Positions 46,165 to 56,202 of a DNA stretch of 64,000 nt are shown here, piece by piece. The stretch is from Escherichia coli O157:H7 str. 2011EL-2287 (GTDB taxonomy: Bacteria > Pseudomonadota > Gammaproteobacteria > Enterobacterales > Enterobacteriaceae), in NCBI GenBank assembly GCA_000614405.2, contig GCA_000614405.2_3612.1. One strand, 5' to 3'. Every line of letters starts with the position of its first letter. The first letter of the stretch is position 1. The translations under genes were made by a program, and so were the position numbers. The notes beneath the pieces are model-generated. The model was not told the origin of the DNA. It made no database searches and saw only the letters and a program-made list of their open reading frames with translations.

Positions 46165-46341
46165 ATGGAAGGTAATATGATCCCCCTGGAAAATGTAGCT
46201 ATTAATGACGCTGAGGCTATCGCCCTGGTTGAAAAGGCTATGGCGGGAGCGTTGGAACATAAAGAAGAGTACGAAAAAATGATGGTTAACCTGGCAGGGG
46301 CGGCGGCTGGAGAATTCTACCCAAAAAATAATTTTAACTAA
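46165..46341 (+). CDS. small hypothetical protein (58 aa)
   Basis: Below ORF-track threshold; strong RBS GAGGAGG before ATG. Confidence 0.45.
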   Translation: MEGNMIPLENVAINDAEAIALVEKAMAGALEHKEEYEKMMVNLAGAAAGEFYPKNNFN

Positions 46342-46344
46342 TGG

Positions 46345-46373
46345 TTGACAGCTCGGACAGTTCTTGTTATTCT
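46345..46373 (+). promoter_or_regulatory. sigma70-like promoter
   Basis: TTGACA-N17-TATTCT upstream of 46429 gene. Confidence 0.5.
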
Positions 46374-46428
46374 TATCCTCGCAAGGTGAACAACACCACA
46401 CCAATTAACAGAGAGGATAAAAAAAATC

Positions 46429-46626
46429 ATGAACGCCTACGGAATTAAAGTACGTCGCAACACTCGCCAGGTGGTCACCAATCAAGTGATTTGCCGGGTG
46501 GATGTAACCATCAACAACGGGCAAGGCCTTTATAAATTTCGTCGCGGTCATAGCTATACCCTGCAACAGCTTAACCGTTGCGCCCTGACAAAAGGTCAGA
46601 TCAACCACTGGTTTAATAAAAAATAA
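46429..46626 (+). CDS. hypothetical small basic protein
   Basis: RBS AGAGGA; own promoter. Confidence 0.45.
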   Translation: MNAYGIKVRRNTRQVVTNQVICRVDVTINNGQGLYKFRRGHSYTLQQLNRCALTKGQINHWFNKK

Positions 46627-46628
46627 TG

Positions 46629-46657
46629 TTGACATATGGTCTGACACAAAATACACT
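46629..46657 (+). promoter_or_regulatory. sigma70-like promoter
   Basis: TTGACA-N17-TACACT upstream of 46690 gene. Confidence 0.5.
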
Positions 46658-46689
46658 GAAATCGCAAAAGACACTAAGAGGATAAAATC

Positions 46690-47088
46690 ATGAAAACCAC
46701 TACCTTTAATTTTGATAATGCGGACTTTTCTTTTTCTGATGTCAAGAACTGCCGCCGTGATCGTGGATTTTACAAGGCTTATAATCTGGTGGGCCTGGAC
46801 GATGACAATAATTTGCACGAAGTAGCTGAGATCCGGTATTATGCCGCCGCCAGTGGTAACACTCACTACTGCGTGTTTTGGATTCACGACAACAAGAACA
46901 ATAAGTACGGTTATACTGGCGGCAAGGCGAGCGGTCACGGTTACGATAAAGCTAACGCAGCACTTGAGAGTGCATTAAATGCTATGGGGATCACTGCCGA
47001 CGGCTGGATCTACGAAGAAGAGTTTTTGTCGGCACTTGCTGACCACCTGGGCTATAAAAAGCACATTGTGACATGCGCCCACGAATAA
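46690..47088 (+). CDS. hypothetical protein
   Basis: RBS AAGAGGA; own promoter. Confidence 0.5.
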   Translation: MKTTTFNFDNADFSFSDVKNCRRDRGFYKAYNLVGLDDDNNLHEVAEIRYYAAASGNTHYCVFWIHDNKNNKYGYTGGKASGHGYDKANAALESALNAMGITADGWIYEEEFLSALADHLGYKKHIVTCAHE

Positions 47089-47102
47089 AAATCATTGACA
47101 CG

Positions 47103-47130
47103 CTGCAAAATTTAAGTAAACTAGACACAA
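47103..47130 (+). promoter_or_regulatory. sigma70-like promoter
   Basis: TTGACA-N16-TAAACT then leader hairpin GGCGGGAA-TGT-TTCCCGCC. Confidence 0.5.
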
Positions 47131-47170
47131 AAGGCGGGAATGTTTCCCGCCAGCACAAAGGAAAAAGATC

Positions 47171-47575
47171 ATGAATAAGAACGTACGCCGCATCATGAAC
47201 GAACTGGCAAACGATGAAAAAATTATTGACATGCACTTAGTGAACATTTGCCGCCGTTGTGTAACCTATAACAACCGCGCCGCAAAAGCGCGTGAGATGA
47301 ACGCAAAAGGCACCTTAAAGCCCTTCCAGGTGGTGGTAAAGGCCATTAAAGATGTAGCTAATACGGCAAACCAGGTACAGGGGAACACCAACGAGAGTAC
47401 CAATATTGATCCGGCTTACATCATGAAACGGATCCGGACCTGCAAGAACAAAGAGCAAGTGTATAACGTCATAGACTGGTTGGATTCCATGGGCGACGTG
47501 GTTTATAATAGGTTTTCTGCAGCCATTGAGATCCAGCTAGACAGGTTGGACGGGAAAGTACTAAAAACTTATTGA
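47171..47575 (+). CDS. hypothetical protein
   Basis: RBS AAAGGAAAAAG; own promoter and leader hairpin. Confidence 0.5.
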   Translation: MNKNVRRIMNELANDEKIIDMHLVNICRRCVTYNNRAAKAREMNAKGTLKPFQVVVKAIKDVANTANQVQGNTNESTNIDPAYIMKRIRTCKNKEQVYNVIDWLDSMGDVVYNRFSAAIEIQLDRLDGKVLKTY

Positions 47576-47576
47576 G

Positions 47577-47623
47577 TTTATTTTTAGATGGCCTTGACTC
47601 CAGGGCCATCGATAAAGTAAACT
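47577..47623 (+). repeat. promoter-stem-loop repeat (PeSL-like) copy 1
   Basis: TTTATTTTTAGATGGCCTTGACTCCAGGGCCATCGATAAAGTAAACT; hairpin GATGGCC/GGCCATC with TTGACT in loop. Confidence 0.55.
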
Positions 47624-47655
47624 AATCTCAGTTAAGCGAAAAAGGGGGCTTTAAG

Positions 47656-47775
47656 ATGGGCACTACACGCCAATACACAAAGGTAACTATTATCGTCTGC
47701 GTTGTCGGTTACATCCTGGCGCAAATGTTAATGAGTAGCGCTAACAGTTTTGCAAAATTTTTCTTAAATTTTTAA
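47656..47775 (+). CDS. hydrophobic micro-protein (39 aa)
   Basis: Below ORF-track threshold; RBS AAAGGGGG; central hydrophobic stretch VTIIVCVVGYILAQML. Confidence 0.35.
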   Translation: MGTTRQYTKVTIIVCVVGYILAQMLMSSANSFAKFFLNF

Positions 47776-47803
47776 TTGACAAGCTAACTTAGATCGGTAT
47801 ACT
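47776..47803 (+). promoter_or_regulatory. sigma70-like promoter
   Basis: TTGACA-N16-TATACT; leader hairpin GGGAA-AAC-TTCCC. Confidence 0.5.
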
Positions 47804-47854
47804 TAAACCCGTAAACGGGAAAACTTCCCAGAACACACAAAAGGAGAAAACACC

Positions 47855-48196
47855 ATGACCACTATGACCGCCGCAGAAAAAGCTATTCAGGTTGCCGCAC
47901 TGAAAAAACAGATCGCAGACCTTGAGAACAAGATCGATACCTTTGAAATCGACGAGGACAAGTACGACGAAAACTATGATGAATGGTTAGACGAGATCTA
48001 CGGAGAAATCATGATCGGAAACATTTCTTTTCTTCCGTCGCGTATCCTCAAGGAGCTAGATCCTATCGCTTACCGCTGCGGATTTAGCGACTACATCGAC
48101 AGCCTGGATATTGAGGACGATGAAGAATACCAGGAATTACAGACAGAGTTAGAAGAAGCAAAAGAAGAGCTTGCGGAGCTGGAAGAAAACGAGTAA
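47855..48196 (+). CDS. hypothetical acidic protein
   Basis: RBS AAGGAGAAAA; Glu/Asp-rich C-terminal half. Confidence 0.5.
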   Translation: MTTMTAAEKAIQVAALKKQIADLENKIDTFEIDEDKYDENYDEWLDEIYGEIMIGNISFLPSRILKELDPIAYRCGFSDYIDSLDIEDDEEYQELQTELEEAKEELAELEENE

Positions 48197-48198
48197 GA

Positions 48199-48244
48199 TT
48201 ATTTTTAGATGGCCTTGACTCCAGGGCCATCAATAAAGTAAACT
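48199..48244 (+). repeat. promoter-stem-loop repeat (PeSL-like) copy 2
   Basis: Near-identical to 47577 element (single G/A difference). Confidence 0.55.
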
Positions 48245-48285: not shown

Positions 48286-48531
48286 ATGGCAGCACTAATC
48301 ACCAAATATTATGCCCCTACCAACACCAAAAGCGCCCGTATCATGGTAAAAGGCTTCGGACGTAAAAAGGTTTACACCTGGGATTATGCCTTAGACACGG
48401 AAGACAACTACACCAACGCGATGACAGATTTTATTAATGAGCTGAACACGCGGATCTTGACAAATTATAAAATTACCGATATTGCCTATATAGGGGAAGG
48501 CGGGATCTGTTTTGTCGGTATCGTCAAATAA
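48286..48531 (+). CDS. hypothetical protein
   Basis: RBS TAGGAG. Confidence 0.45.
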   Translation: MAALITKYYAPTNTKSARIMVKGFGRKKVYTWDYALDTEDNYTNAMTDFINELNTRILTNYKITDIAYIGEGGICFVGIVK

Positions 48532-48532
48532 G

Positions 48533-48580
48533 CTGTTTTTTCGGTGGTCCTGGTAGCAGGGCCATCTATAAAGATAGTTT
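48533..48580 (+). repeat. degenerate promoter-stem-loop-like element
   Basis: GGTCCTGGTAGCAGGGCCATCTATAAAG shares GGGCCATC-ATAAAG core with PeSL-like repeats. Confidence 0.3.
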
Positions 48581-48606: not shown

Positions 48607-48960
48607 ATGATCAGCGGGGCAAGTTTTATTATTGGCGCTATTGCTACGGCTTTAATTGTAAACAAGATCCAATCTAAAAACGAAAAAGAGAGCAACGCGC
48701 TCACAGAATACCCATTTTGGGTATTCAACGACAATGAAGACTACATTATCAAGTACAAGAATGAGAAGGGCGACCAGGTAACACCGCGACCGATCCCGGC
48801 TTACAAGATGCAAGAAACACTATACCGCCTAAAGGCTGGAGGCGCAAAAATCGTAGACTTTTGGGGATATGATTGCAAGGATCAGGAGGTTATAAAGCGC
48901 CGTATCCGGGCTATTCAGGCCAATATTGAAGTTAGCAAGGGGGGAATATATGAAGATTAA
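48607..48960 (+). CDS. membrane protein
   Basis: ATG after AAAGGAGAAAG RBS; N-terminal helix ISGASFIIGAIATALIV (ORF track start 48544). Confidence 0.45.
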   Translation: MISGASFIIGAIATALIVNKIQSKNEKESNALTEYPFWVFNDNEDYIIKYKNEKGDQVTPRPIPAYKMQETLYRLKAGGAKIVDFWGYDCKDQEVIKRRIRAIQANIEVSKGGIYED

Positions 48961-49147
48961 TTTTGAGAAGATTGTAAAGCGATCTCATGATTCCGAAGAG
49001 CTGCCGGAACGACGCCAGCGTAACAATAAACTGAATAAGCCGAAAAGATTTGGGAAGATCTGGCGAAATCACTATGATCGCAAATTACCCAGCCTGCTTT
49101 TGGAACGTGAACGACAAGCGGAACGATACCGCCACAAAGACAAATAG
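48950..49147 (+). CDS. small basic protein
   Basis: ATG after AGGGGGGAATAT; Arg/Lys-rich; overlaps upstream gene end. Confidence 0.35.
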   Translation: MKINFEKIVKRSHDSEELPERRQRNNKLNKPKRFGKIWRNHYDRKLPSLLLERERQAERYRHKDK

Positions 49148-49154: not shown

Positions 49155-49184
49155 CGCCCCGCCATTGTGCGGGGTTTTTTATTT
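49155..49184 (+). terminator. rho-independent terminator
   Basis: Hairpin CCCCGC-CATTGT-GCGGGG + TTTTTT. Confidence 0.6.
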
Positions 49185-49328
49185 CTATCCTACGAATAGC
49201 GCCCCTGGTTGGCCCCACAAACGCCACAAAAGCCCCTACCTATGCAATCCCCTTTATTAACCTGAAAACATCACCCAGGGCCGTTTTATGGTGTTAAAAA
49301 ATATCATTGACAGTGATTTTATTTAAAG

Positions 49329-49357
49329 CTTGACACCTTGGAATAGTCCGGATATAC
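49329..49357 (+). promoter_or_regulatory. sigma70-like promoter
   Basis: TTGACA-N17-TATACT upstream of 49394 gene. Confidence 0.5.
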
Positions 49358-49393
49358 TAACCACATCAAAGCAAGAAGGAAGGAGTAAACGCC

Positions 49394-49654
49394 ATGCGTA
49401 AATTAAAAAATTTTGATAAAGTTGATGTTGTCCTGAATAATTTTTACTACTGCAATAACAAGGCCATTTGGTGGCGTGATAGTTCCACCGATAAAGTCAA
49501 GGCGCGCTTTCTCCAGGGGCACTGGCAAGGCCGTCCAGTGATTAAAATCATGGGGCAATTGGTAGCGTTTAAAAATTGCCGCCGTGTTGATGACGTTGAA
49601 GAGATTTTAAGCATTTTGCGCCACAATAATTTAAAAAATAGTGTTGACAAGTAA
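49394..49654 (+). CDS. hypothetical protein
   Basis: RBS AAGGAAGGAG. Confidence 0.45.
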   Translation: MRKLKNFDKVDVVLNNFYYCNNKAIWWRDSSTDKVKARFLQGHWQGRPVIKIMGQLVAFKNCRRVDDVEEILSILRHNNLKNSVDK

Positions 49655-49671
49655 ATCTCGATAAGTATACT
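49644..49671 (+). promoter_or_regulatory. sigma70-like promoter
   Basis: TTGACA-N16-TATACT; leader hairpin GGCGGGAA-AAC-TTCCCGCC. Confidence 0.5.
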
Positions 49672-49728
49672 TAAACACACAGGCGGGAAAACTTCCCGCC
49701 ACTAACAAAGAAAATAGGAGAAAATATC

Positions 49729-50352
49729 ATGACCACCGTTAACATTACCACAGGTTACAATTTATCTTTCGACGTGCTGACCGATGAACAAAAAGAAAAA
49801 GCTATTGAAATGGTCCGCGAAAGAGAAGAACACAGCGGGGATAACTTTTTTGCAGAAAGTGTAATTGAAGACTATAAAGAACATATCTTTCCAGAGTATG
49901 GCCTTGAAGATACCAAGGTACATTGGTCCGGCTTTTGGTGCCAGGGCGACGGCGCGTCAATCAGTGCGGAAAACGTGGATTTAGAAAAATTCTTGCGTAA
50001 AGTCAAGTCTCTGACTAAATTCCGCTCAATTCGTCACTTGTTCGGCACAATGCACGATGGCGAGCTATCCGCAAGTGTTGAGCGTGATCCATATAGCCGC
50101 TATAGTCACGAAAATACTGTGAGCGGGTACATCGATACTACATGGCTAGACCTGACAGCCAAGCAAGAAAGTAAGGTTGAAGAGCTGGAAGAGTTGATCA
50201 CCGAGAACGTACGGGAACTATCCCGCAAGGTTTACGTAGACCTGGAGCAAGCTTATCTTGAACAATTTACTACCGAAAACCTGATCGGCCTTATCGAGGC
50301 CAATGATTGGCGGTTTGATGTGGATGAATATGGAGAGATGAGTTTTTCATAA
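49729..50352 (+). CDS. hypothetical protein
   Basis: 207-aa ORF, RBS TAGGAGAAAA. Confidence 0.5.
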   Translation: MTTVNITTGYNLSFDVLTDEQKEKAIEMVREREEHSGDNFFAESVIEDYKEHIFPEYGLEDTKVHWSGFWCQGDGASISAENVDLEKFLRKVKSLTKFRSIRHLFGTMHDGELSASVERDPYSRYSHENTVSGYIDTTWLDLTAKQESKVEELEELITENVRELSRKVYVDLEQAYLEQFTTENLIGLIEANDWRFDVDEYGEMSFS

Positions 50353-50360: not shown

Positions 50361-50388
50361 TTGCAATAATCTAAAAACCTGCTATATT
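50361..50388 (+). promoter_or_regulatory. sigma70-like promoter
   Basis: TTGCAA-N16-TATATT; leader hairpin GGGGCAA-GACG-TTTGCCCC. Confidence 0.45.
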
Positions 50389-50442
50389 AAAACTCAAGGG
50401 GCAAGACGTTTGCCCCCCACACAAAACAAAGAGGAAAACATC

Positions 50443-50823
50443 ATGAAAAACACTACTAAAGCTATTGACACCGTCATGTTTAACCTGGTTACCTTTCGCG
50501 AGGATATGAAAGATCTTCCACGTGAAACAGTGTGCGATCACATTGAAAACTATCGCAAACTAATCAAAGAGTTGCCTTTAAAACGTGATCAGTATGCGGC
50601 TAACGCCATGCTTAATGCCATGATCAAAAAGATGATCCAGTGTGATTTAACTCTGGCCTATGACTATGCGGGTGGTCGTTTTGCAGTATACAATCAGCCC
50701 GTGCCCGGTATGGGCACCACCGAAGAATTGCACGCGTTAAATCTGAAGCAAGATGTATGGGATAACATGCCCCGCGTGGTGGTGTGGGCAGAAAGCGGAA
50801 AGATTTACGGCGATAATTTTTAA
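50443..50823 (+). CDS. hypothetical protein
   Basis: ATG after AAAGAGGAAAACATC leader (ORF track start 50410 lies within the leader hairpin). Confidence 0.45.
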   Translation: MKNTTKAIDTVMFNLVTFREDMKDLPRETVCDHIENYRKLIKELPLKRDQYAANAMLNAMIKKMIQCDLTLAYDYAGGRFAVYNQPVPGMGTTEELHALNLKQDVWDNMPRVVVWAESGKIYGDNF

Positions 50824-51737: not shown

Positions 51738-51938
51738 ATGAGCAACAATATCCGCGTTATTAACTTCAAAAAAGAAGAAAAAATTGCCGTGCTGATTGAC
51801 GGTCAAGAAATCTTCAAGGGCGACTATGAAGATCATCAAACGGCGATTAGTATCACTCGCGTGATTGGTTACCATAATTTTTACCCCCAAGGCGCTGAGG
51901 CGGCGGTTAAACGAATCAAAGAGATTGTAGGCCTGTAA
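51738..51938 (+). CDS. hypothetical protein
   Basis: RBS AAAGGAGAAA. Confidence 0.45.
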   Translation: MSNNIRVINFKKEEKIAVLIDGQEIFKGDYEDHQTAISITRVIGYHNFYPQGAEAAVKRIKEIVGL

Positions 51939-51939
51939 A

Positions 51940-51985
51940 ATTTATTTTTAGATGGCCTTGACTCTAGGGCCATCAATAAAGTAAA
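51940..51985 (+). repeat. promoter-stem-loop repeat (PeSL-like) copy 3
   Basis: TTTATTTTTAGATGGCCTTGACTCTAGGGCCATCAATAAAGTAAAT; near-identical to copies at 47577 and 48199. Confidence 0.55.
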
Positions 51986-52031
51986 TTTAAACCCTGTTAA
52001 AATACCACGCAGTTAACAAGGAGTGATAGAC

Positions 52032-52331
52032 ATGTTTATCCAGGCTAATAATCTTTATTTCTTTGATGGTCAGATCGTAGATGGTGTGGAAGTGGAGATC
52101 ACTGGGTGCCCTGGTGGTCAGGCTATGACTTTTCGGAATAATGCCTTTGATGATTCTCATATCGTTATGAGAATGGAAGTTACAAAGCTGGACGACAAGA
52201 AAACGCTCATTGACTATTCCGTGAAAGATCATCCAGACTACCACATGATCTATGGTGATTTGTGCATTGTTGACCGTGACAAGGTGGGCGGCATTGTGAT
52301 CGCTATTGTGAACGATGTTTTCTCTGTATAG
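52032..52331 (+). CDS. hypothetical protein
   Basis: ATG after AAGGAG (ORF track start 52023). Confidence 0.45.
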   Translation: MFIQANNLYFFDGQIVDGVEVEITGCPGGQAMTFRNNAFDDSHIVMRMEVTKLDDKKTLIDYSVKDHPDYHMIYGDLCIVDRDKVGGIVIAIVNDVFSV

Positions 52332-52389
52332 TTCCGGCAAATGATGCAAAATAAGGCCCCTAGCAGGGCCTGCAGCGATATAATCACAT

Positions 52390-52425
52390 AAAGGCCATGC
52401 GGTTGCATGGCCTTTATTATTTTGG
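52390..52425 (+). terminator. rho-independent terminator
   Basis: 10-bp stem AAGGCCATGC-GGTT-GCATGGCCTT + TATTATTTT. Confidence 0.65.
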
Positions 52426-52471: not shown

Positions 52472-52500
52472 TTGCATCAAGCCCTACAATATGGATAATA
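52472..52500 (+). promoter_or_regulatory. sigma70-like promoter
   Basis: TTGCAT-N17-GATAAT; leader hairpin GGGGGC/GCCCCC. Confidence 0.4.
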
Positions 52501-52552
52501 GTACGTGTCAGGGGGCGGCCCCCAATCATTAACAGAAACAGGAGTTAAAACT

Positions 52553-52837
52553 ATGGCTATTGTTACCGCTGGCGATGTAGTAGAAATGGAAGCAAAATAC
52601 TTAAAAGCGGGTATGCATATCCTGCGCAACGATCTTGAACTGGTCTTGACAATGGTTGACTATAACCCAGGGCAAGATTATCCAAGTGTTGACTACTTTT
52701 TTGAGTATGTTGATGAAGAGTTGAAAGAGGATGAGGCCTATTGCGGTGAGTTCTGCAACTTCTTTTGTCCTGATGAGGTTGTAAAGGTTATCTATCAACC
52801 TGGCGTAGCTTTCCCGCTGCACGCTATCAATAAATAA
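52553..52837 (+). CDS. hypothetical protein
   Basis: ATG after ACAGGAG (ORF track start 52505). Confidence 0.45.
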   Translation: MAIVTAGDVVEMEAKYLKAGMHILRNDLELVLTMVDYNPGQDYPSVDYFFEYVDEELKEDEAYCGEFCNFFCPDEVVKVIYQPGVAFPLHAINK

Positions 52838-52899
52838 ACCTGGCGGGGCCGAAAAGGCCTCCGCCTGAAATTATGAAAAATAAAAAGAGGCAAACTATC

Positions 52900-53130
52900 A
52901 TGATGGAACAAATTAAACGCGCTGAGGCTATTAATGGCAATGTGATCTATTTTGTCAGCAATAACGAAAAAGGCGTACCATATGCGGCGGTAATAGTACA
53001 GCCTGACGGCGATTATTGGTTTACTGTGTACGGCGCTTACTCTTTTGGGCGTCCAGTGCATGATAAAATTTTGAAAGTAGCGAACCCTACCGGGAAGAAT
53101 ATCACAGCAGAAAAATTTTTTGAAAAATAG
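52900..53130 (+). CDS. hypothetical protein
   Basis: ATG after AAAAGAGG (ORF track start 52873). Confidence 0.45.
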   Translation: MMEQIKRAEAINGNVIYFVSNNEKGVPYAAVIVQPDGDYWFTVYGAYSFGRPVHDKILKVANPTGKNITAEKFFEK

Positions 53131-53158
53131 TTGACATGGCCTTATAAGACTGTAGAAT
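53131..53158 (+). promoter_or_regulatory. sigma70-like promoter
   Basis: TTGACA-N16-TAGAAT; leader hairpin GGGGGC-AACAA-GCCCC. Confidence 0.5.
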
Positions 53159-53210
53159 ATAAATCAAAGGGGGCAACAAGCCCCACCAACCACAAAGAGG
53201 ATAAAAAATC

Positions 53211-53390
53211 ATGGCTATTATTGCAAAGACTGAGATCGTAGGCTTAGATTCTATTCTCCTCGCATATGAGGAAGCTATAGAAATGTATGTGGTTTCCTAT
53301 GGTGAATATATCCGTGAATATAAATCTATTGATCTGGCTTTTGAATGTTATATTCGCCAGGTTAATAAAGCGTACGATGATTATCGTTAA
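53211..53390 (+). CDS. small hypothetical protein (59 aa)
   Basis: Below ORF-track threshold; RBS AAAGAGGATAAAAAATC. Confidence 0.35.
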   Translation: MAIIAKTEIVGLDSILLAYEEAIEMYVVSYGEYIREYKSIDLAFECYIRQVNKAYDDYR

Positions 53391-53480
53391 AATAGCTTGA
53401 CAACAAACAACCATCTAACAAAGCATAATACATAAGGCGGTGGAATGGTCCGCCACCTGGAACAAGAAGAGGAAAACAAG

Positions 53481-53585
53481 ATGAAACAGAAATTAATTGA
53501 TGCGGTGATCCTGGTTATTGCCCTGGGTATTGGCCTGATTGCAACCATGTCTAATATGATCTTGTCTTCCAACGGTATCGGGTGA
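53481..53585 (+). CDS. hydrophobic micro-protein (34 aa)
   Basis: RBS AAGAGGAAAA; single TM-like segment AVILVIALGIGLIATM. Confidence 0.35.
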   Translation: MKQKLIDAVILVIALGIGLIATMSNMILSSNGIG

Positions 53586-53594: not shown

Positions 53595-53810
53595 ATGATC
53601 ACTAACAAAACAGGCAAAACAGAATTTTTACGCAACTTACAGATCGGCAAGCCTGAGATCTGGTATTGCACTAAAACACCACGTGACGAAATGAAAGACT
53701 TCACCGCCACGCTGCAACGGGTAAAGATATCCATCACGCAGAAAAAGGCCTTATTAGTGGTGGAAGGTGAGATCCCCCAAACCGTTGTTATAGTTGAGCG
53801 TACAGCATAG
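53595..53810 (+). CDS. hypothetical protein
   Basis: ORF with RBS GGTGAGG. Confidence 0.4.
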   Translation: MITNKTGKTEFLRNLQIGKPEIWYCTKTPRDEMKDFTATLQRVKISITQKKALLVVEGEIPQTVVIVERTA

Positions 53811-53901
53811 TTTAATTTATACCGATACCCGAAAATTAACCAACAAAGCATAAACAGGCGGTTACCGCCGCCTTAAACGTAGCAGAAAGAGGATAGACAC
53901 A

Positions 53902-54186
53902 ATGAAAAAGATGATCGCAGCGGTTGCCCTGGTTGTTGGACTTAATGCGCCTGTAATGGCTAAAGAGCTGGCAAAAGAGGTTAATCTAACGGATATTCAT
54001 GCCGTCAATCAAATCGGGGTTACTTATCGCTTATGCCTTGCCGCTAAAACTTTCCAGGACGGCACGACAGAGTACTACGGATTCGAGGGTATCCGGTGCG
54101 GTGAGCTTGCTCGCGACCTTAAGGAAGATCCAGACCTGGAAGATCTGCCCATCACCGTAAACGGTAAAGCTTACGTAAACCGTTAA
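53902..54186 (+). CDS. secreted small protein
   Basis: Signal-peptide-like N-terminus MKKMIAAVALVVGLNAPVMA; RBS AAAGAGGA. Confidence 0.45.
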   Translation: MKKMIAAVALVVGLNAPVMAKELAKEVNLTDIHAVNQIGVTYRLCLAAKTFQDGTTEYYGFEGIRCGELARDLKEDPDLEDLPITVNGKAYVNR

Positions 54187-54188
54187 CC

Positions 54189-54323
54189 ATGAGAAAGATA
54201 ATCATCACCTTGGGGATTGTGGCGGGATCGCTGGCGCTCTTTCCCATTATGGTTAGGTATGTGCTGATCAGTATTGTCCTGGTAGTCAGTGATCTATTGG
54301 AAACGGTTGGCACCTTGTTTTAA
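54189..54323 (+). CDS. hydrophobic micro-protein (44 aa)
   Basis: Start overlaps upstream stop region; two hydrophobic stretches; weak RBS. Confidence 0.3.
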   Translation: MRKIIITLGIVAGSLALFPIMVRYVLISIVLVVSDLLETVGTLF

Positions 54324-54342: not shown

Positions 54343-54534
54343 ATGAATGTCGAACAAGTTAGAAAGGTATTGGCGGTACTGCGTTATCATAATCATAGAA
54401 AGGTCATAGACGATCCTGATTATGTCGATTCAAACCTGGAAGAGGATACACTACAAGCCATAAGTAACATGCAAGAATTGCTAAAGCGCATGACAGAGAA
54501 AAACCGACCGGACTACATAGGCGAAAAAATATAA
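54343..54534 (+). CDS. hypothetical protein
   Basis: ORF; weak RBS. Confidence 0.35.
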   Translation: MNVEQVRKVLAVLRYHNHRKVIDDPDYVDSNLEEDTLQAISNMQELLKRMTEKNRPDYIGEKI

Positions 54535-54550
54535 TATTTATAAACTACAA

Positions 54551-54580
54551 AACAGGGCTTGCAATGGTCCTGTTTTTTGT
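54551..54580 (+). terminator. rho-independent terminator
   Basis: Hairpin ACAGGGC-TTGCAATG-GTCCTGT + TTTTTT. Confidence 0.55.
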
Positions 54581-54593
54581 TATACTTATTCCA

Positions 54594-54640
54594 CGGCAGG
54601 CACCTGGCGACGGGGGAGACAATCACCGGGCCTGCCTGTC
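54594..54640 (-). repeat. GC-rich structured element (copy 3, inverted)
   Basis: Reverse complement GGCAGGCCCGGTGATTGTCTCCCCCGTCGCCAGGTGCCTGCCGT matches copy 1 (23 nt exact) and copy 2. Confidence 0.5.
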
Positions 54641-54661
54641 ATATAAGAACTATAAAAACCG

Positions 54662-54690
54662 TTGACATCTGCCATGGGGTGGGGTAACAT
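54662..54690 (+). promoter_or_regulatory. sigma70-like promoter
   Basis: TTGACA-N17-TAACAT; leader hairpin GGGCA-AAAG-TGCCC. Confidence 0.5.
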
Positions 54691-54744
54691 TTATCTTGAA
54701 GGGGCAAAAGTGCCCACACAACACCCAGGAGAGAGGAAAACATT

Positions 54745-55017
54745 ATGTCAAGCTGGATTAATCAAGAAGTCGAATCACGTTTTAATGCTATATGGGATCT
54801 CATCGAAAAAGAGGACGGAACATCAAGCCCCTACCTCAACAATTTGGAATTCCATTTTGTGGAAGCGATGAACGCAGAACATGATCACGAAGGTGGCGCA
54901 GATGAGTTCGCTAAAGGTTATGGCTTTAACAATGCCAACGAAATGATCGAGGCGGTAGTACTCCAGGCTGAGGAAGATTATCAATTAAAAACGCTTGAAT
55001 TCTGCCGCCGTAAGTAA
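54745..55017 (+). CDS. hypothetical protein
   Basis: RBS AGGAGAGAGG. Confidence 0.45.
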   Translation: MSSWINQEVESRFNAIWDLIEKEDGTSSPYLNNLEFHFVEAMNAEHDHEGGADEFAKGYGFNNANEMIEAVVLQAEEDYQLKTLEFCRRK

Positions 55018-55077
55018 TAAGATAATGACACGGGCCAAAAGGCCCACTAATCAGAACCACACAAAGAGAGAAAGAAA

Positions 55078-55296
55078 ATGACAACCCGTAAAATTAAAGT
55101 TGTTTGCATTGAATCGACTGGGGGCGCTTTTGTAGTTGGTCAGGAATATAATGCGGTTTTAATGGGTACGGATTGGAAGGTTAAAGGCCTTAATGGTTAC
55201 GAGTACGGCACTACTTGCGGCTTGCGTGGTCGAATCGGATACGTGAGTTTAGACAATAAAGAAAAATTTGTTTTCGACACCCTTGTGAGTAAATAG
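55078..55296 (+). CDS. small paralog-family protein
   Basis: RBS AAAGAGAGAAAG; beta-rich small protein similar to the 37-39 kb family. Confidence 0.45.
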   Translation: MTTRKIKVVCIESTGGAFVVGQEYNAVLMGTDWKVKGLNGYEYGTTCGLRGRIGYVSLDNKEKFVFDTLVSK

Positions 55297-55373
55297 CATG
55301 AATTGCTAAAAACTGATCTGCGAACTGCTGTATTATCAACTAATCAAAACGAACCACATAAAGAGGAAACATC

Positions 55374-55637
55374 ATGAAACGTCTGGATCAGCTTAAACTA
55401 GTTCAGTACATGGCCTACAAAGTTCTTGAAGTCCAAAAAGGTAGCAAAAAAGAGGTTTGCGAGAAAGCTTATAAGATCTTTACCCGCAAAAAAGATGACT
55501 GGATGCTACGCCAGACCAAAAAGGCTGACATCTTGGGGTACCTGGAAGAAGAGATCCGCCTTGAAGAGCAAGAAGAGATCCGCCGCAGTGAAGCAGATTA
55601 TCAGGCAGCCTGGGAAAACTGGATGAATAACAAATAA
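55374..55637 (+). CDS. hypothetical protein
   Basis: RBS AAAGAGGAAA. Confidence 0.45.
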   Translation: MKRLDQLKLVQYMAYKVLEVQKGSKKEVCEKAYKIFTRKKDDWMLRQTKKADILGYLEEEIRLEEQEEIRRSEADYQAAWENWMNNK

Positions 55638-55704
55638 TACAACAAGTTACATGGTCAGGGGGGCAATAAAGCCCCTTGATCACATAAAAATTATGCTATC
55701 CTTA

Positions 55705-55733
55705 TTGACAAGGATCGGCAGTTTTGCTATATT
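55705..55733 (+). promoter_or_regulatory. sigma70-like promoter
   Basis: TTGACA-N17-TATATT upstream of 55783 gene. Confidence 0.5.
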
Positions 55734-55782
55734 CTTTTTTAAAGGGAAGTTGTAAGAAAATTAACTAAGAGGTAAAAACACC

Positions 55783-56202
55783 ATGAACATTAAATCTAAT
55801 AATCCGGCATATAGCTTTGATAACGCTTTTTGTCACGGTCCGGCGGCGAAAGGATTCGAAATCGATGGTAAACTAATTATTGTCAATGTTGACGGGGAAG
55901 AGGTTGCAGTATATCCGGTGGCAGACGTAAAAAGCCGTTTACAATGCCGCATTGATGTTACCGCCTATCAGCTTGATCCGGTCCGCATAGTTGCCCTGGT
56001 CCTGGAAGAAGAAATTAAAGCCATGCACCATAGCAACAGGTTTATTGGTGACGCTCAGGATAATATGAAGGTGTGCCGCCATAAAGTTAATGAAGTGCTT
56101 AAAGAGTACGGCTATAAAGATCTTATGATCAAACGTGATGAAAAATTCCGGTACCGTAACGACCTGGCAAATCGGATTTTTGAAATATACGAATCATTAT
56201 AA
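55783..56202 (+). CDS. hypothetical protein
   Basis: RBS AAGAGG; last gene before non-coding region. Confidence 0.5.
   Translation: MNIKSNNPAYSFDNAFCHGPAAKGFEIDGKLIIVNVDGEEVAVYPVADVKSRLQCRIDVTAYQLDPVRIVALVLEEEIKAMHHSNRFIGDAQDNMKVCRHKVNEVLKEYGYKDLMIKRDEKFRYRNDLANRIFEIYESL

What the first reader, a model, noticed from the sequence alone, without database searches (positions are those of the whole stretch)
46165..56202. Hyperplastic region: ~30 small genes, each with its own promoter, a GC leader hairpin and a conserved CACAAAGAGGAAAA leader
Most genes here are 34-140 codons. Each is preceded by a near-consensus sigma70 promoter (TTGACA-N16/17-TATACT and variants), often a short GC hairpin in the 5' UTR (GGCGGGAA..TTCCCGCC, GGGGCAA..TTGCCCC, GGGGGC..GCCCC) and a leader resembling CCACACAAAGAGGAAAACATC before the ATG. 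Many are followed by their own terminator. None has a recognisable enzymatic motif; several are membrane or secreted. This monocistronic, promoter-dense layout suggests early host-takeover or anti-defence genes, with the recurrent leader hairpin a possible shared post-transcriptional control.
Basis: partly seen in the sequence, partly recalled or inferred. Interest (0 to 1): 0.55.

Follow-up and report, generated by a model that had tools for sequence, protein, structure and literature searches.

The report
Promoter–hairpin–leader cassettes of phage early genes
This is the small-gene early region of an rV5-like E. coli phage, where about half of 29 unknown-function genes sit behind a reusable "promoter + hairpin + ribosome-site" cassette, as already described for T4-like phages, and these cassettes seem to help swap genes between phage lineages.

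Summary
The window is an rV5-like coliphage (Vequintavirus; 94% identical to phage V5 ORFs 164-197). There are 29 conserved + strand ORFs of 34-207 aa. All have full-length PHROG matches of unknown function, and only one has a Pfam hit (T7 gene 1.1). Promoters are fewer than claimed: 16 genes have a good sigma70 promoter, 4 a weak one and 9 none. Eleven genes have a G-first GC hairpin 8-11 nt after the -10 and 20-33 nt before the ATG, with no T-run after it. The "CACAAAGAGGAAAA" leader is a degenerate A/C-rich extended Shine-Dalgarno. Only 6-8 terminators exist, so the layout is not monocistronic. The closest known system is the PeSL cassette of T4-like phages RB49/phi1. Supporting this, three of six indels among relatives join inside leader or hairpin repeats. 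The same cassette family also occurs in Stephanstirmvirinae and the jumbo phage PBECO4, but not in RB49. Promoter density here was already published. Verdict: a new variant of a known kind, moderately interesting.

The parts
46165..46341 (+). g1, 58 aa, acidic
   Evidence: SD AGGAGG; phrog_21957 full length
46345..46428 (+). cassette of g2: promoter TTGACA-17-TATTCT (TG-extended), no strong hairpin, leader CAGAGAGGATAAAAAAAATC
46429..46626 (+). g2, 65 aa, basic
   Evidence: phrog_7119
46629..46689 (+). cassette of g3: TTGACA-17-TACACT, 32-nt leader without hairpin, TAAGAGGATAAAATC
46690..47088 (+). g3, 132 aa
   Evidence: phrog_7028
47095..47170 (+). class A cassette of g4: TTGACA-16-TAAACT; hairpin GGCGGGAAtgtTTCCCGCC at 47133-47151 (-14.6 kcal/mol); leader CACAAAGGAAAAAGATC
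   Evidence: model R1 hit E=8e-6
47171..47575 (+). g4, 134 aa
   Evidence: phrog_13245
47575..47623 (+). class B element, copy 1: two-tier sense-RNA hairpin with TTGACT (-35) in the apical loop and TAAACT (-10) in the 3' outer arm
   Evidence: (-26.2 kcal/mol, z -6.6)
47656..47775 (+). g5, 39 aa, one TM segment
   Evidence: phrog_16391; KD 2.36
47776..47854 (+). class A cassette of g6: TTGACA-16-TATACT; weak hairpins at 47808-47819 and 47817-47829; leader CACACAAAAGGAGAAAACACC; 74% identical over 66 nt to the g11 cassette
   Evidence: (D6)
47855..48196 (+). g6, 113 aa, pI 4.1
   Evidence: phrog_9294
48196..48244 (+). class B element, copy 2
48286..48531 (+). g7, 81 aa
   Evidence: phrog_3199
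48531..48579 (+). class B element, diverged copy 3: promoter hexamers degenerate, hairpin fully kept through compensatory and G-U changes (-28.2 kcal/mol)
48607..48960 (+). g8, 117 aa, N-terminal TM
   Evidence: phrog_12734
48950..49147 (+). g9, 65 aa, basic; homologue of T7 gene 1.1; overlaps the end of g8 and has no promoter of its own
   Evidence: Pfam PF08200, E=1.5e-11, above the cut-off
49156..49185 (+). intrinsic terminator GCCCCGCcattgtGCGGGGT followed by TTTTTTATTT
49330..49393 (+). cassette of g10: TTGACA-17-TATACT (a second TTGACA lies about 20 nt upstream), 35-nt leader without hairpin
49394..49654 (+). g10, 86 aa
   Evidence: phrog_11241
49644..49728 (+). class A cassette of g11: TTGACA-16-TATACT; hairpin GGCGGGAAaacTTCCCGCC at 49682-49700; leader CAAAGAAAATAGGAGAAAATATC
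   Evidence: model R1 hit E=3e-6
49729..50352 (+). g11, 207 aa, acidic; homologues in jumbo phages (PBECO4, RaK2) and Bacillus phages; confident model, no known fold
50361..50442 (+). class A cassette of g12: TTGCAA-16-TATATT (TG); hairpin GGGGCAAgacgtTTGCCCC at 50398-50416; leader CCACACAAAACAAAGAGGAAAACATC
50443..50823 (+). g12, 126 aa
   Evidence: phrog_7352
50833..50860 (+). terminator AGGCGGCAtattTGCCGCCT followed by TATTGTT
50888..51259 (+). g13, 123 aa, membrane protein
   Evidence: phrog_13090; KD 3.28
51237..51482 (+). g14, 81 aa, overlaps g13
   Evidence: phrog_12060
51479..51598 (+). g15, 39 aa, TM, ATGA-coupled to g14
   Evidence: phrog_13629
51603..51630 (+). terminator GCCCCCgatcatGGGGGC followed by TTAACTTTTT
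51654..51737 (+). class A cassette of g16: TTGCAA-16-GATAAT; hairpin GGGGAaacaTCCCC at 51692-51705 (loop differs in inoa and Mangalyan, stem kept)
51738..51938 (+). g16, 66 aa
   Evidence: phrog_12347
51939..51987 (+). class B element, copy 4 (G-C to A-U compensatory change in the outer stem)
52032..52331 (+). g17, 99 aa (split into ORF177/178 in the rV5 record)
   Evidence: phrog_7366
52354..52417 (.). pair of hairpins after g17: 52354-52371 (T-run only on the - strand) and 52388-52417 (13-bp stem followed by TATTTTGG); probable terminator block
52472..52552 (+). class A cassette of g18: TTGCAT-16-GATAAT; hairpin GGGGGcggCCCCC at 52511-52523
52553..52837 (+). g18, 94 aa, pI 4.2
   Evidence: phrog_12610
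52842..52865 (+). unassigned G-first hairpin GGCGGGGCCgaaaaGGCCTCCGCC between g18 and g19; no promoter and no T-run
52900..53130 (+). g19, 76 aa; shared as a single-gene block with Stephanstirmvirinae
53131..53210 (+). class A cassette of g20: TTGACA-16-TAGAAT; hairpin GGGGCaacaaGCCCC at 53170-53184; leader CCACAAAGAGGATAAAAAATC
53211..53390 (+). g20, 59 aa; 93-94% DNA identity in Justusliebigvirus phages, limited to leader plus gene
53397..53480 (+). class A cassette of g21: TTGACA with poor spacing (18 nt to AAGCAT, 21 nt to CATAAT); hairpin GGCGGTGGaatgGTCCGCCACC at 53436-53457; leader CAAGAAGAGGAAAACAAG; a recombination junction in inoa and Mangalyan
53481..53585 (+). g21, 34 aa, TM
   Evidence: phrog_14631, 1-34/34
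53595..53810 (+). g22, 71 aa
   Evidence: phrog_5988
53856..53901 (+). hairpin AGGCGGttaccgCCGCCT at 53856-53873 plus leader CAGAAAGAGGATAGACACA before g23; no convincing promoter
53902..54186 (+). g23, 94 aa, signal peptide
   Evidence: phrog_9845
54189..54323 (+). g24, 44 aa, membrane
   Evidence: phrog_16005
54343..54534 (+). g25, 63 aa
   Evidence: phrog_9599
54549..54586 (+). composite terminator/promoter: hairpin AAAACAGGGC(TTGCAA)TGGTCCTGTTTT with the -35 in its loop, a T-run in the spacer, then -10 TATACT
54662..54744 (+). class A cassette of g26: TTGACA-17-TAACAT; hairpin GGGCAaaagTGCCC at 54702-54715; leader GAGAGAGGAAAACATT
54745..55017 (+). g26, 90 aa; rV5 ORF167, annotated as similar to an RB49 protein
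54995..55077 (+). class A cassette of g27: TTGAAT-17-TAAGAT; hairpin GGGCCaaaaGGCCC at 55032-55045; leader ACTAATCAGAACCACACAAAGAGAGAAAGAAA (recombination repeat)
55078..55296 (+). g27, 72 aa; absent from phage inoa; 90% identical leader-to-leader block in Schickermooser
55329..55373 (+). extended -10 TGTATTAT plus leader ACTAATCAAAACGAACCACATAAAGAGGAAACATC before g28
55374..55637 (+). g28, 87 aa
   Evidence: phrog_11701
55660..55675 (+). hairpin GGGGCaataaaGCCCC after g28 (weak T tail); left boundary of the g29 module
55705..55782 (+). cassette of g29: TTGACA-17-TATATT (TG), no hairpin, leader TAAGAGGTAAAAACACC
55783..56202 (+). g29, 139 aa; absent from phage Gotham
56221..56248 (+). terminator AAGGGGCttagGCCCCTT followed by TCTTTTTGTC; end of the transcription unit

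Best explanation
The region is the distal half of the early, host-RNA-polymerase-transcribed unit of an rV5-like coliphage. It carries 29 conserved small genes of unknown function and ends about 1 kb before the genome's terminal repeat. Expression is organised by short, reusable intergenic cassettes of the same kind as the PeSL ('promoter-early stem-loop') cassettes of T4-like phages.

Class A (11 genes) has four pieces in fixed order:
- an A/T-rich stretch;
- a near-consensus sigma70 promoter;
- 8-11 nt later, a G-first GC hairpin of 5-8 bp;
- then about 15 nt of unstructured A/C-rich leader, a strong Shine-Dalgarno (AAGAGGA/AAGGAG), an A-rich spacer and the ATG.

Five to six further genes have the same promoter and leader without the hairpin.

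Class B (4 copies) is a 49-nt two-tier hairpin placed directly after a stop codon. It holds a TTGACT -35 in its loop and a TAAACT -10 in its 3' arm.

How it most likely works:
1. Shown by sequence only: host sigma70 RNA polymerase starts at many internal promoters. Because there are only 6 clear terminators (plus 2 weak ones), transcripts overlap and read through.
2. Inferred: the class A hairpin would begin at about +2 to +5 of its own transcript. It would act as a 5'-terminal stabiliser, hindering RppH and 5'-end-dependent RNase E attack. The unstructured A/C-rich leader would give uniformly strong translation.
3. Inferred: class B folds in read-through RNA from the upstream gene. It has the geometry of a T7-type RNase III processing site or a 3'-end protective hairpin.
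4. Supported by comparison: the repeated leaders and hairpins supply the short homologies at which genes are inserted, deleted and exchanged. This exchange reaches across Vequintavirus, Stephanstirmvirinae and the jumbo Asteriusvirus.
For: Identity and context:
- The region is 94% identical to rV5 ORFs 164-197.
- The rV5 and CB7 papers already place sigma70 promoters here.
- The Gotham record annotates 14 promoters in the orthologous region.

Features beyond chance:
- Promoters are 10 on the + strand and 0 on the - strand, against 1.8 in shuffles.
- Hairpins are 25 against 4.5 in shuffles.
- Leader-motif matches are 34 against 10.3.

Fixed geometry:
- The distance from the -10 to the hairpin is 8-11 nt.
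- The distance from the hairpin to the ATG is 20-33 nt.
- The distance from the end of the -10 to the ATG is 48-57 nt with a hairpin and 32-49 nt (mostly 32-44) without one.
- Tails after leader hairpins hold 0-3 T in 10 nt; tails after terminators hold 5-9 T.
- The sequence upstream of the -35 is 72% A+T, against 57% for the region.

PeSL definition:
- A PeSL is a sigma70 promoter with an AT-rich upstream stretch, a polyG/polyC stem-loop in one of five positions (including downstream of the -10 and overlapping the -35), and a Shine-Dalgarno plus ATG.
- PeSLs lie in hyperplastic regions and flank ORFans (PMC2839356).

Structure is kept while sequence changes:
- Loops differ between orthologues while stems are kept.
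- On the class A model alignment the covariation score is 0.235, against 0.137 in shuffles (0 of 500 reach it).
- In class B, 98.4% of cells are paired, 4 pairs show compensatory change, and one-sided changes preserve G-U pairs.
- Class B sense RNA folds at -23.4 kcal/mol against -14.1 for antisense, in 19 of 19 copies, with z-scores of -5 to -7.

Recombination junctions:
- In inoa, an extra gene is flanked by a 32-nt leader repeat.
- In inoa, the g27 deletion lies between two ACTAATCA..CACA(C/T)AAAGAG leaders and leaves a chimeric leader.
- In Gotham, the g29 module lies between two TCA(A)GGGGC hairpins.
- Schickermooser shares g12, g19, g20, g22, g23-25, g27 and g29 as separate blocks in a different order, with block ends in leaders.

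Spread to other lineages:
- The same cassette type occurs in inny, Schickermooser and PBECO4.
- Model R1 finds 5 sense-strand hits in PBECO4, which was not used to build the model.

RNase III criteria:
- Substrates typically span about two helical turns.
- An internal loop limits cleavage to one strand and leaves a protective 3' hairpin (PMC1540722).
Against: - No transcript ends were mapped, so transcription starts, read-through and any processing are all inferred.
- The predicted 5' overhang of 2-5 nt is at the edge of what I recall blocks RppH and RNase E (my own knowledge of Belasco-lab work, not checked here).
- Internal stem-loops are poor obstacles to RNase E scanning (PMC9943677). The hairpin could therefore protect only the transcript that starts at its own promoter.
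- Class A stems in the window are all Watson-Crick. Sense and antisense fold equally well (p=0.26), so RNA-level and DNA-level roles cannot be separated for class A.
- Three of the six real indels (the insertions at 52324/52344 and 54535/54575, and Mangalyan's replacement at 53496-53530, whose left junction lies five codons inside g21) are not at cassette repeats.
- The G-first orientation and the leader similarity may partly reflect common descent of duplicated cassettes rather than selection (D6).
- The covariance model gives no hit in RB49, so this is an analogue of the PeSL, not a demonstrated homologue.
Confidence: 0.62

Rival explanations
1. The stem-loops are transcription terminators or attenuators that stop read-through from upstream promoters. 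Each gene would then be expressed mainly from its own promoter. This is the role originally proposed for PeSL stem-loops.
For: - In RB49, one PeSL stem-loop placed before lacZ reduced expression as much as the rrnB T1 terminator (PMC2839356).
- Class B elements and the hairpins at 52842 and 55660 sit right after stop codons.
- One element (54549-54586) really is a terminator with a promoter built into it.
Against: - Class A hairpins lie downstream of their own predicted start, so they would terminate their own transcript.
- They are followed by A/C-rich sequence with 0-3 T in 10 nt, whereas the six canonical terminators have 5-9 T.
- Class B has its T-run before the stem and an A-run after it. 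The two pair with each other, so neither strand has a U-tail.
- The terminator scan did not flag class B.
Confidence: 0.15
2. The leader hairpins are operators for one shared RNA-binding regulator. Candidates would be a phage translational repressor, an antiterminator of the lambda N/boxB kind, or an early-mRNA nuclease. Such a regulator would switch the whole gene set off or on together.
For: - Position and G-first orientation are the same in 11 of 11 cassettes here and in more than 35 in other phages.
- Several hairpins resemble boxB in size, with 5-bp GC stems and A-rich loops of 4-5 nt (53170, 54702, 55032).
- GGCGG(G/C)A is common in Stephanstirmvirinae.
Against: - Stem sequences differ widely within this one genome: GGCGGGAA, GGGGCAA, GGGGA, GGGGG, GGGCA, GGGCC.
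- Loops differ between orthologues (AACA to GCTAA, AAAA to GGGA) while the stems are kept.
- No boxA-like motif was seen by eye next to the hairpins; no motif search was run.
- More than half of the genes lack the hairpin.
- No RNA-binding protein family was found among the 29 products.
Confidence: 0.08
3. The repeats have no expression role of their own. They would be selfish or neutral palindromic repeats, and duplicated promoter copies kept similar by gene conversion. Class B in particular would be a small mobile palindrome like bacterial REP elements.
For: - Three class B copies are 92-96% identical while their flanking genes are unrelated.
- The g6 and g11 cassettes are 74% identical over 66 nt (D6).
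- Leader repeats extend into the first codons (D15).
Against: - The diverged class B copy lost its promoter hexamers but kept all 20 pairs through compensatory and G-U-preserving changes. That asymmetry only makes sense for the sense-strand RNA.
- Class B copies are conserved at orthologous sites in five relatives.
- Class A geometry relative to the -10 and the ATG is fixed across four phage lineages.
Confidence: 0.1
4. The GC hairpins act on the opposite strand, as terminators that stop antisense transcription coming from the convergent gene block beyond the genome terminus.
For: - The simple scan flags several of them as - strand terminators, for example 49700-49682 followed by TGTGTGTTTA and 47151-47133 followed by TTTTGTGTCT.
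- The rV5 paper expected, but did not find, a bidirectional terminator between genes 163 and 164.
Against: - The - strand tails are interrupted by G and are weak.
- A strong terminator (56221) and about 1.5 kb of non-coding DNA already separate the blocks.
- The hairpins track + strand promoters and start codons at fixed distances.
- In Stephanstirmvirinae the stems contain G-U pairs that would be A-C mismatches on the other strand.
- All model R1 hits with E below 0.1 are on the sense strand.
Confidence: 0.05

Closest known systems
PeSL (promoter-early stem-loop) cassettes of T4-like phages RB49/phi1, PST and nt-1 (Arbiol et al. 2010, PMC2839356; Comeau et al. 2014, PMC4122927)
   Same: - Intergenic cassettes of about 60-100 bp lie in a plastic region of small ORFans.
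- Each has an AT-rich stretch, a consensus sigma70 early promoter, a stem-loop with a G-tract followed by a C-tract, a conserved leader, a Shine-Dalgarno and an ATG.
- The stem-loop may lie downstream of the -10 (class A here), over the -35 (class B and 54549 here) or elsewhere.
- Indels between close relatives join inside the cassettes.
   Different: - The phage lineage differs: Vequintavirus, not Straboviridae.
- There is no sequence relationship. The RB49 leader is ACATCGAAACGA..AGGAGAATCAAA, its stems lie mostly between or over the promoter hexamers, and model R1 gives no hit there.
- Here the dominant position is the 5' UTR, with no U-tract, so a terminator role is unlikely.
- Mini-circles and promoter or terminator activity were not tested here.
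Sigma70-type early promoters already reported for Vequintavirinae (rV5, PMC3606486; Certrevirus CB7/CR3/CR8/CR9, PMC7344957; GenBank MT682716 Gotham)
   Same: The same region and the same promoters are involved. rV5 annotates P195A/B, P192, P186, P168 and P164 in the orthologous stretch, and Gotham annotates 14 promoters there. Concentration of promoters in the small-ORF region is stated for Certrevirus.
   Different: In the passages I retrieved from the two papers by term search, and in the two GenBank annotations, the downstream hairpin, the common leader, the class B RNA element and the link to recombination are not described. In eight papers that mention PeSLs, none deals with rV5-like or phAPEC8-like phages.
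Host-takeover module in the terminal redundancy of Bacillus phage SPO1 (Stewart et al. 1998; recalled from memory, not checked here)
   Same: Both are a block of about two dozen very small genes next to the genome end. Both have many strong early promoters, several terminators and unusually strong ribosome-binding sites. The products are mostly of unknown function and are thought to act on the host.
   Different: The host and phage family differ, and no homology was tested. The SPO1 genes lie inside the terminal repeat, whereas here the block ends about 1 kb before a 459-bp repeat. No 5' hairpin family has been described there, to my knowledge.
5'-terminal stabilising stem-loops of E. coli mRNAs (ompA type; Emory, Bouvet and Belasco 1992; the RppH/RNase E 5'-end pathway summarised in PMC9943677)
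   Same: A stable hairpin lies within a few nucleotides of the predicted 5' end. It is followed by a single-stranded leader and a ribosome-binding site placed far enough away not to be occluded.
   Different: Transcription starts are only predicted here. The predicted overhang of 2-5 nt may be too long for full protection. No half-life data exist.
RNase III processing signals of the T7 early region (R0.3-R1.3; features summarised in PMC1540722)
   Same: Class B is an intercistronic hairpin of two roughly 10-bp helices separated by an asymmetric 2x3 internal loop. That is about two helical turns, the geometry that gives single-strand cleavage and leaves a protective 3' hairpin on the upstream mRNA.
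   Different: Cleavage was not tested. The proximal and distal box rules were not evaluated. Unlike the T7 sites, the element also carries sigma70 promoter hexamers, and its outer helix is almost pure A-U.

Membership tests
PeSL cassette (T4-like phages) | Consensus sigma70 early promoter in an intergenic spacer | tested here: met
   Sites with at least 10/12 matches number 10 on the + strand and 0 on the - strand, against 1.8 +/- 1.3 in shuffles. 16 of 29 genes have a promoter with at least 9/12 matches.
PeSL cassette (T4-like phages) | AT-rich stretch upstream of the -35 | tested here: met
   The 25 nt upstream of the -35 average about 72% A+T, against 57% for the region.
PeSL cassette (T4-like phages) | Stable stem-loop with a G-tract then a C-tract, in one of five positions relative to the promoter | tested here: met
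   11 hairpins lie downstream of the -10 and all are G-first. Four class B copies and the 54549 element have the -35 in the loop.
PeSL cassette (T4-like phages) | Shine-Dalgarno and start codon at the 3' end of the cassette | tested here: met
   (families D2-D5, D7)
PeSL cassette (T4-like phages) | Preferential association with ORFans in a hyperplastic region | tested here: met
   All 29 of 29 products are of unknown function. Gene content varies among relatives. Only one similar cassette (28577) was found elsewhere in the 64-kb window.
PeSL cassette (T4-like phages) | Indel junctions between relatives fall inside the cassettes | tested here: inconclusive
   Three of six real events join in leader or hairpin repeats (inoa extra gene, g27, g29). 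A fourth (Mangalyan) has its left junction five codons inside g21, just past the shared leader. Two lie at gene ends without repeats. One apparent event was an N-run artefact. Only five relatives were examined.
PeSL cassette (T4-like phages) | Stem-loop acts as a transcription terminator | not testable with these tools
   No U-tract follows class A or class B hairpins, which argues against it, but activity was not measured.
PeSL cassette (T4-like phages) | Excised mini-circles formed by PeSL-PeSL recombination | not testable with these tools
   This needs inverse PCR on infected cells or virions.
PeSL cassette (T4-like phages) | Sequence relatedness to the RB49/phi1 cassettes, in a T4-like genome | tested here: not met
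   The phage is a Vequintavirus. RB49 cassettes have a different leader and stem placement. Model R1 gives no hit in 16 kb of the RB49 hyperplastic region.
5'-terminal mRNA stabiliser hairpin | Hairpin begins within about 2-4 nt of the transcript 5' end | tested here: inconclusive
   The hairpin begins 8-11 nt after the -10, which predicts 2-5 unpaired nt if the start is at position 7-8. Starts were not mapped.
5'-terminal mRNA stabiliser hairpin | Removal shortens mRNA half-life in an RNase E/RppH-dependent way | not testable with these tools
   experiment needed
T7-type RNase III processing site (class B element) | About two helical turns of dsRNA, with an internal loop, in an intercistronic position on the sense RNA | tested here: met
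   The element has 10 + 10 bp with a 2x3 internal loop and a 4-nt apical loop, folding at -21 to -28 kcal/mol. 98.4% of cells are paired, with compensatory changes. The sense strand is 9 kcal/mol more stable than the antisense in 19 of 19 copies. Criteria are from PMC1540722.
T7-type RNase III processing site (class B element) | Cleavage by RNase III in vivo or in vitro; absence of antideterminant base pairs in the proximal and distal boxes | not tested
   The box rules were not evaluated, and cleavage cannot be tested here.
lambda-type nut site (boxA-boxB) | Conserved boxA next to a hairpin with a conserved GNRA-like loop | tested here: not met
   Flanks read by eye are ACACAAAA/CACAAAG with no boxA-like motif; no motif search was run. 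Loops differ between genes and between orthologues.
Rfam RNA families | Match to any curated covariance model | tested here: not met
   There were two matches at E about 0.9, both far below their gathering scores.

The most novel reading that the evidence does not exclude
Two linked readings are not excluded by the evidence.

1. The class B element is a dual-use signal. As DNA it is a sigma70 promoter, with an UP-like T-tract, the -35 in the loop and the -10 in the 3' arm. As sense RNA in read-through transcripts it is an RNase III-type processing or 3'-protection hairpin. Processed and primary mRNAs of the downstream gene would then get nearly the same 5' end, and the upstream mRNA would get a protective 3' hairpin.

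2. The class A promoter-hairpin-leader cassette is a common 'exchange currency' for early genes. It is shared by at least three unrelated E. coli myovirus lineages (Vequintavirus, Stephanstirmvirinae, jumbo Asteriusvirus). A gene arriving by recombination in the leader would be expressed correctly at once.
Probability: 0.3. Interest if true: 0.6.

Novelty: new variant of a known kind. Interest (0 to 1): 0.42.

Why it matters
Early regions of large lytic phages hold most of the unknown host-takeover and anti-defence genes, and they change fastest. A defined, recognisable cassette would be useful in three ways:
1. It corrects start-codon calls. For example, rV5 ORF173 and ORF196 are annotated with starts inside the cassette.
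2. It marks which small ORFs are independently expressed early genes.
3. It explains how single genes move between phage subfamilies. g20 is 93-94% identical in Justusliebigvirus, limited to its leader and coding sequence, and g27 is shared with Schickermooser (Phapecoctavirus) as a 90% identical block running from its own leader to the next gene's leader.

The cassettes are also compact natural parts for synthetic biology: a strong promoter, a 5' hairpin and a strong ribosome-binding site. If class B is an RNase III site fused to a promoter, it would be an unusual economy of signals. The general idea, however, is already established for T4-like phages, and the promoter density is already published for rV5-like phages.

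Tried and rejected
- RNAalifold on a MAFFT alignment of 39 class A leaders predicted no pairs, because stem and loop lengths differ. I built a covariance model instead. Its alignment still mis-registers the outer helix (58.6% paired), so the class A covariation figure is only modest support.
- A sense-versus-antisense folding test for class A showed no asymmetry (p=0.26). RNA-level and DNA-level roles therefore remain open for class A.
- One apparent breakpoint in O157 typing phage 14 (49546/49695) was a run of N in that record and was discarded.
- The Rfam scan gave nothing.
- Pfam gave one real hit in 29 proteins, and PHROGs gave only unknown-function families.
- For g11 I made a homologue search, an alignment and an AlphaFold model (pLDDT 86.5). 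Neither the PDB sequence search nor the Foldseek search gave a significant match.
- I looked for a link to RNase E stimulation through the Srd-like gp11 named in the rV5 paper. The candidate ORF 17954-18997 (- strand) has no Pfam hit, so I dropped the idea.
- The lambda nut/boxB and antisense-terminator readings were considered and rejected (see the rival explanations).
- A paper that mentions both Vequintavirus and transcriptomics (PMC13250531) concerns a T5-like phage and is not relevant.

Full report
**What the window is.** The 10-kb stretch is 94% identical over its full length to Escherichia phage V5/rV5 (DQ832317, ORFs 164-197, opposite strand). It is 93-97% identical to many other Vequintavirus records, and 239 records match in all. 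The rV5 record annotates 34 small hypothetical genes, six sigma70 promoters and two terminators under the match. The rV5 paper assigns these genes to one transcription unit, 10-1-238-164. It reports 33 sigma70-type promoters and 20 terminators genome-wide (PMC3606486). The record of phage Gotham annotates 14 predicted promoters in the orthologous stretch. For the sister genus Certrevirus, a sigma70-like promoter is reported to be concentrated in the region of short hypothetical ORFs (PMC7344957). The promoter-dense, small-gene character of this region is therefore already published.

**Genes.** I called 29 + strand genes between 46165 and 56202 from ORFs with Shine-Dalgarno sites.
- They encode 34-207 aa.
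- All 29 give full-length matches to PHROG families, every one labelled unknown function. They are real, conserved genes, and most start codons are confirmed; for example g21 matches 1-34 of a 34-residue profile.
- Pfam finds only one family above its cut-off: g9 (48950-49147) belongs to Phage_1_1, the T7 gene 1.1 family.
- Seven products have a hydrophobic segment or signal peptide (g5, g8, g13, g15, g21, g23, g24), and many others are strongly acidic or basic.
- The largest product, g11, has homologues in jumbo phages (PBECO4, RaK2) and in Bacillus phages. It gave a confident AlphaFold model (pLDDT 86.5), but no significant match to the PDB by sequence or by fold.
- A host-takeover or anti-defence role therefore remains untested.

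**Promoters.**
- Sites with at least 10 of 12 consensus matches number 10 on the + strand and 0 on the - strand, against 1.8 +/- 1.3 (maximum 5) in dinucleotide shuffles.
- At 9 of 12 matches or better the counts are 34 on the + strand and 6 on the - strand, against 13.8 +/- 4.0.
- Nine of the ten strongest sit just upstream of a gene; the tenth (49413) lies inside g10.
- The 25 nt upstream of the -35 are about 72% A+T, against 57% for the region.
Those nine are overlapping or closely packed with the gene before.

**Class A hairpins.**
- The region holds 25 perfect GC-rich hairpins against 4.5 +/- 2.1 expected, and 17 lie in the non-coding quarter. They fall into two position classes.
- Eleven are leader hairpins: g4, g6 (weak), g11, g12, g16, g18, g20, g21, g23, g26 and g27.
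- They begin 8-11 nt after the -10 and end 20-33 nt before the ATG.
- The ten nucleotides that follow are A/C-rich, with 0-3 T.
- All have the G-rich arm first.
- Leaders with a hairpin measure 48-57 nt from the -10 to the ATG. Leaders without one measure 32-49 nt, mostly 32-44, so the hairpin looks like an inserted module.

**Terminators.** The other hairpin class lies 5-25 nt after a stop codon and is followed by 5-9 T in ten nucleotides. These are ordinary intrinsic terminators, at 49156, 50833, 51603, 52388, 54549 and 56221, with two weak cases at 52354 and 55660. Six clear terminators for 29 genes means the layout is not monocistronic.

**Leader.** The quoted consensus has no exact copy. 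With up to three mismatches there are 34 matches in the window against 10.3 +/- 3.3 expected. Fourteen are on the + strand of this region, and ten of those lie directly before start codons. Compared with 32 other + strand genes of the window, these leaders are richer in A and C and poorer in G and T. They also often end in ATC-ATG or ACC-ATG. The repeat finder recovered the same families independently, and some repeats extend into the first codons (D2-D5, D7, D15, D20). The 'leader' is thus a degenerate, extended Shine-Dalgarno in an unstructured A/C-rich context.

- A 49-nt element occurs four times, each time starting at or within three nucleotides of the end of a stop codon: 47575, 48196, 48531 (diverged) and 51939.
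- It folds into a two-tier hairpin: an outer A-U helix of 10 bp, a 2x3 internal loop, an inner GC helix of 10 bp and a 4-nt loop.
- Folding energy is -21 to -28 kcal/mol, with z-scores of -5 to -7.
- The -35 hexamer TTGACT lies at the tip and the -10 TAAACT lies in the 3' outer arm.
- In 19 distinct copies from six genomes, 98.4% of cells are paired. Four pairs show compensatory changes, and the one-sided changes all preserve G-U pairs.
- The sense RNA is on average 9 kcal/mol more stable than the antisense, in 19 of 19 copies.
- The diverged copy has lost recognisable promoter hexamers but has kept every pair.
- This is therefore a sense-strand RNA structure. Because it lies upstream of its own embedded start, it can exist only in transcripts reading through from the gene before.
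- It has no U-tail on either strand.
- Its geometry matches what is described for E. coli RNase III substrates: about two helical turns, with an internal loop that limits cleavage to one strand and leaves a protective 3' hairpin (PMC1540722). Cleavage itself is untested.

**Closest known system.** PeSLs (promoter-early stem-loops) of the T4-like phages RB49 and phi1 are defined as follows.
- They are intergenic motifs concentrated in hyperplastic regions.
- They contain a consensus sigma70 promoter with an AT-rich upstream stretch.
- They contain a stem-loop, often a G-tract followed by a C-tract, in one of five positions. These include downstream of the -10 and overlapping the -35.
- They end with a Shine-Dalgarno and a start codon.
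- They flank ORFans and mediate insertion, deletion and replacement by recombination (PMC2839356; PMC4122927).

Class A, class B and the composite terminator/promoter at 54549-54586 all fit this description. I read RB49's own cassettes. Their stems lie mostly between or over the promoter hexamers, and their leader is different (ACATCGAAACGA..AGGAGAATCAAA). A covariance model of class A found no match in 16 kb of the RB49 hyperplastic region. The resemblance is therefore one of design, not of demonstrable common origin. None of the eight papers that mention PeSLs deals with rV5-like or phAPEC8-like phages.

**Test of the recombination prediction.** I compared the region with five Vequintavirus relatives.
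- Of seven apparent events, one was an assembly gap.
- Three of the remaining six join inside cassette repeats:
  - inoa carries an extra gene flanked by a 32-nt leader repeat;
  - inoa lacks g27, with the junction between two ACTAATCA..CACA(C/T)AAAGAG leaders, leaving a chimeric leader;
  - Gotham lacks the g29 module, which lies between two TCA(A)GGGGC hairpins.
- Mangalyan has two extra genes inserted at the g21 leader, and both carry Stephanstirmvirinae-type cassettes.
- Two insertions lie at gene ends without repeats.
- Schickermooser belongs to a different subfamily. It shares g12, g19, g20, g22, g23-25, g27 and g29 as separate blocks in a different order. The block ends lie in leaders; the g27 block runs from its leader to the next ATG at 90% identity.
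- g20 is 93-94% identical in Justusliebigvirus phages, limited to leader plus gene.

**Spread of the cassette.** The early regions of inny (Justusliebigvirus), Schickermooser (Phapecoctavirus) and the jumbo phage PBECO4 (Asteriusvirus) show the same order at the same spacings: promoter, about 10 nt, G-first hairpin, A-rich leader with AGAGA/GAGG, ATG. The model built without PBECO4 finds five sense-strand hits there, each just upstream of a gene. All hits with E below 0.1 in every locus are on the sense strand.

**Mechanism.**
- Shown by sequence: there are many host-type promoters, few terminators, a fixed cassette geometry, a sense-RNA structure for class B, and recombination junctions in the repeats.
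- Inferred: class A hairpins would start at about +2 to +5 of their own transcript and so could act as 5'-terminal stabilisers against RppH and 5'-end-dependent RNase E. Internal stem-loops are poor obstacles to RNase E scanning (PMC9943677), so this protection would apply only to the transcript started at the adjacent promoter.
- A terminator role is unlikely because U-tracts are missing.
- A specific operator role is unlikely because stems differ between genes and loops differ between orthologues.
- For class A, sense and antisense fold equally well, and covariation on the model alignment is modest (0.235 against 0.137). An RNA-level role is therefore favoured by position, not proven.

**Context.** Gotham's record has 459-bp repeats at both ends, which places the physical terminus at about window 57250-57700. 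The gene block is transcribed towards this end and stops about 1 kb before it. This recalls, from memory, the host-takeover module of SPO1, but nothing here tests which end enters the cell first.

**Verdict.** The best description is a PeSL-like system of early-gene expression and exchange cassettes in an rV5-like phage. It is a new variant of a known kind. The class B RNA hairpin and the cross-lineage spread are the parts most worth an experiment.

Noticed in passing
window 54590-54660: Downstream of the composite terminator/promoter (54549-54586) lies a roughly 60-nt GC-rich structured stretch (GGCAGGC...GCCTGCC; the 126-nt segment folds at -40.5 kcal/mol, z -3.6) with no ORF. The segment 54546-54629 is 84% conserved in Schickermooser, a different subfamily. 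It may be a small RNA or a long structured leader.
   Followed up: partly
window 56240-57700: This is about 1.5 kb of non-coding DNA after g29, containing clusters of short direct repeats (GTAAACAG, GTGAATA, TGTCA). By alignment to phage Gotham it contains the 459-bp terminal repeat and the physical genome end. The rV5 paper marks a 'non-coding' box here.
   Followed up: partly
window 28577-28659: This is the only other class A-like cassette in the window: TTGACT-17-TAAGAT, hairpin GGGGAGGcactCCTCCCC, leader ACAAAAACTAAGGAAG. It lies upstream of a 402-aa gene (28660-29868), outside the small-gene block.
   Followed up: no
window 45978, 46046, 52834: The 17-nt motif (A/C)ACCTGGCGGGGCC is repeated. 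It contains a CCWGG site, and similar CCTGG-rich GC stretches occur at 49200-49240, 54590 and 56275. Its function is unknown.
   Followed up: no
window 48950-49147: g9 is a homologue of T7 gene 1.1 (Pfam PF08200). It is the only product of the block with any curated family.
   Followed up: yes
window 49729-50352: g11 (207 aa, acidic; invariant GF..QGDG, R119, E154 and R162) is conserved from rV5-like phages to jumbo phages and Bacillus phages. Its confident predicted fold has no PDB match.
   Followed up: partly
L001 (rV5 record DQ832317): Several annotation problems appear in the reference record. ORF196 and ORF173 have starts inside the promoter/hairpin cassette. ORF177 and ORF178 split a gene that is a single 99-aa ORF here. 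A 'terminator' feature spans 285 nt. Small ORFs 187, 188, 180 and 168 overlap intergenic cassettes.
   Followed up: partly
search hits: 23 GenBank records named 'Campylobacter phage' (MG0656xx, host C. jejuni) are 92-97% identical to this E. coli phage region and carry no annotation. They are probably mislabelled or are contaminating coliphages.
   Followed up: no
L005 (KP869112) 3874-4147: A run of N in O157 typing phage 14 mimics a replacement breakpoint at window 49546/49695.
   Followed up: yes
window 36600-46165: The small-gene block really starts near 36.6 kb. Its first half also has sigma70 promoters (37455, 38317, 38655, 42297, 43772), but the genes are tightly packed or overlapping and lack GC leader hairpins. 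The cassette style changes at about 46 kb.
   Followed up: partly
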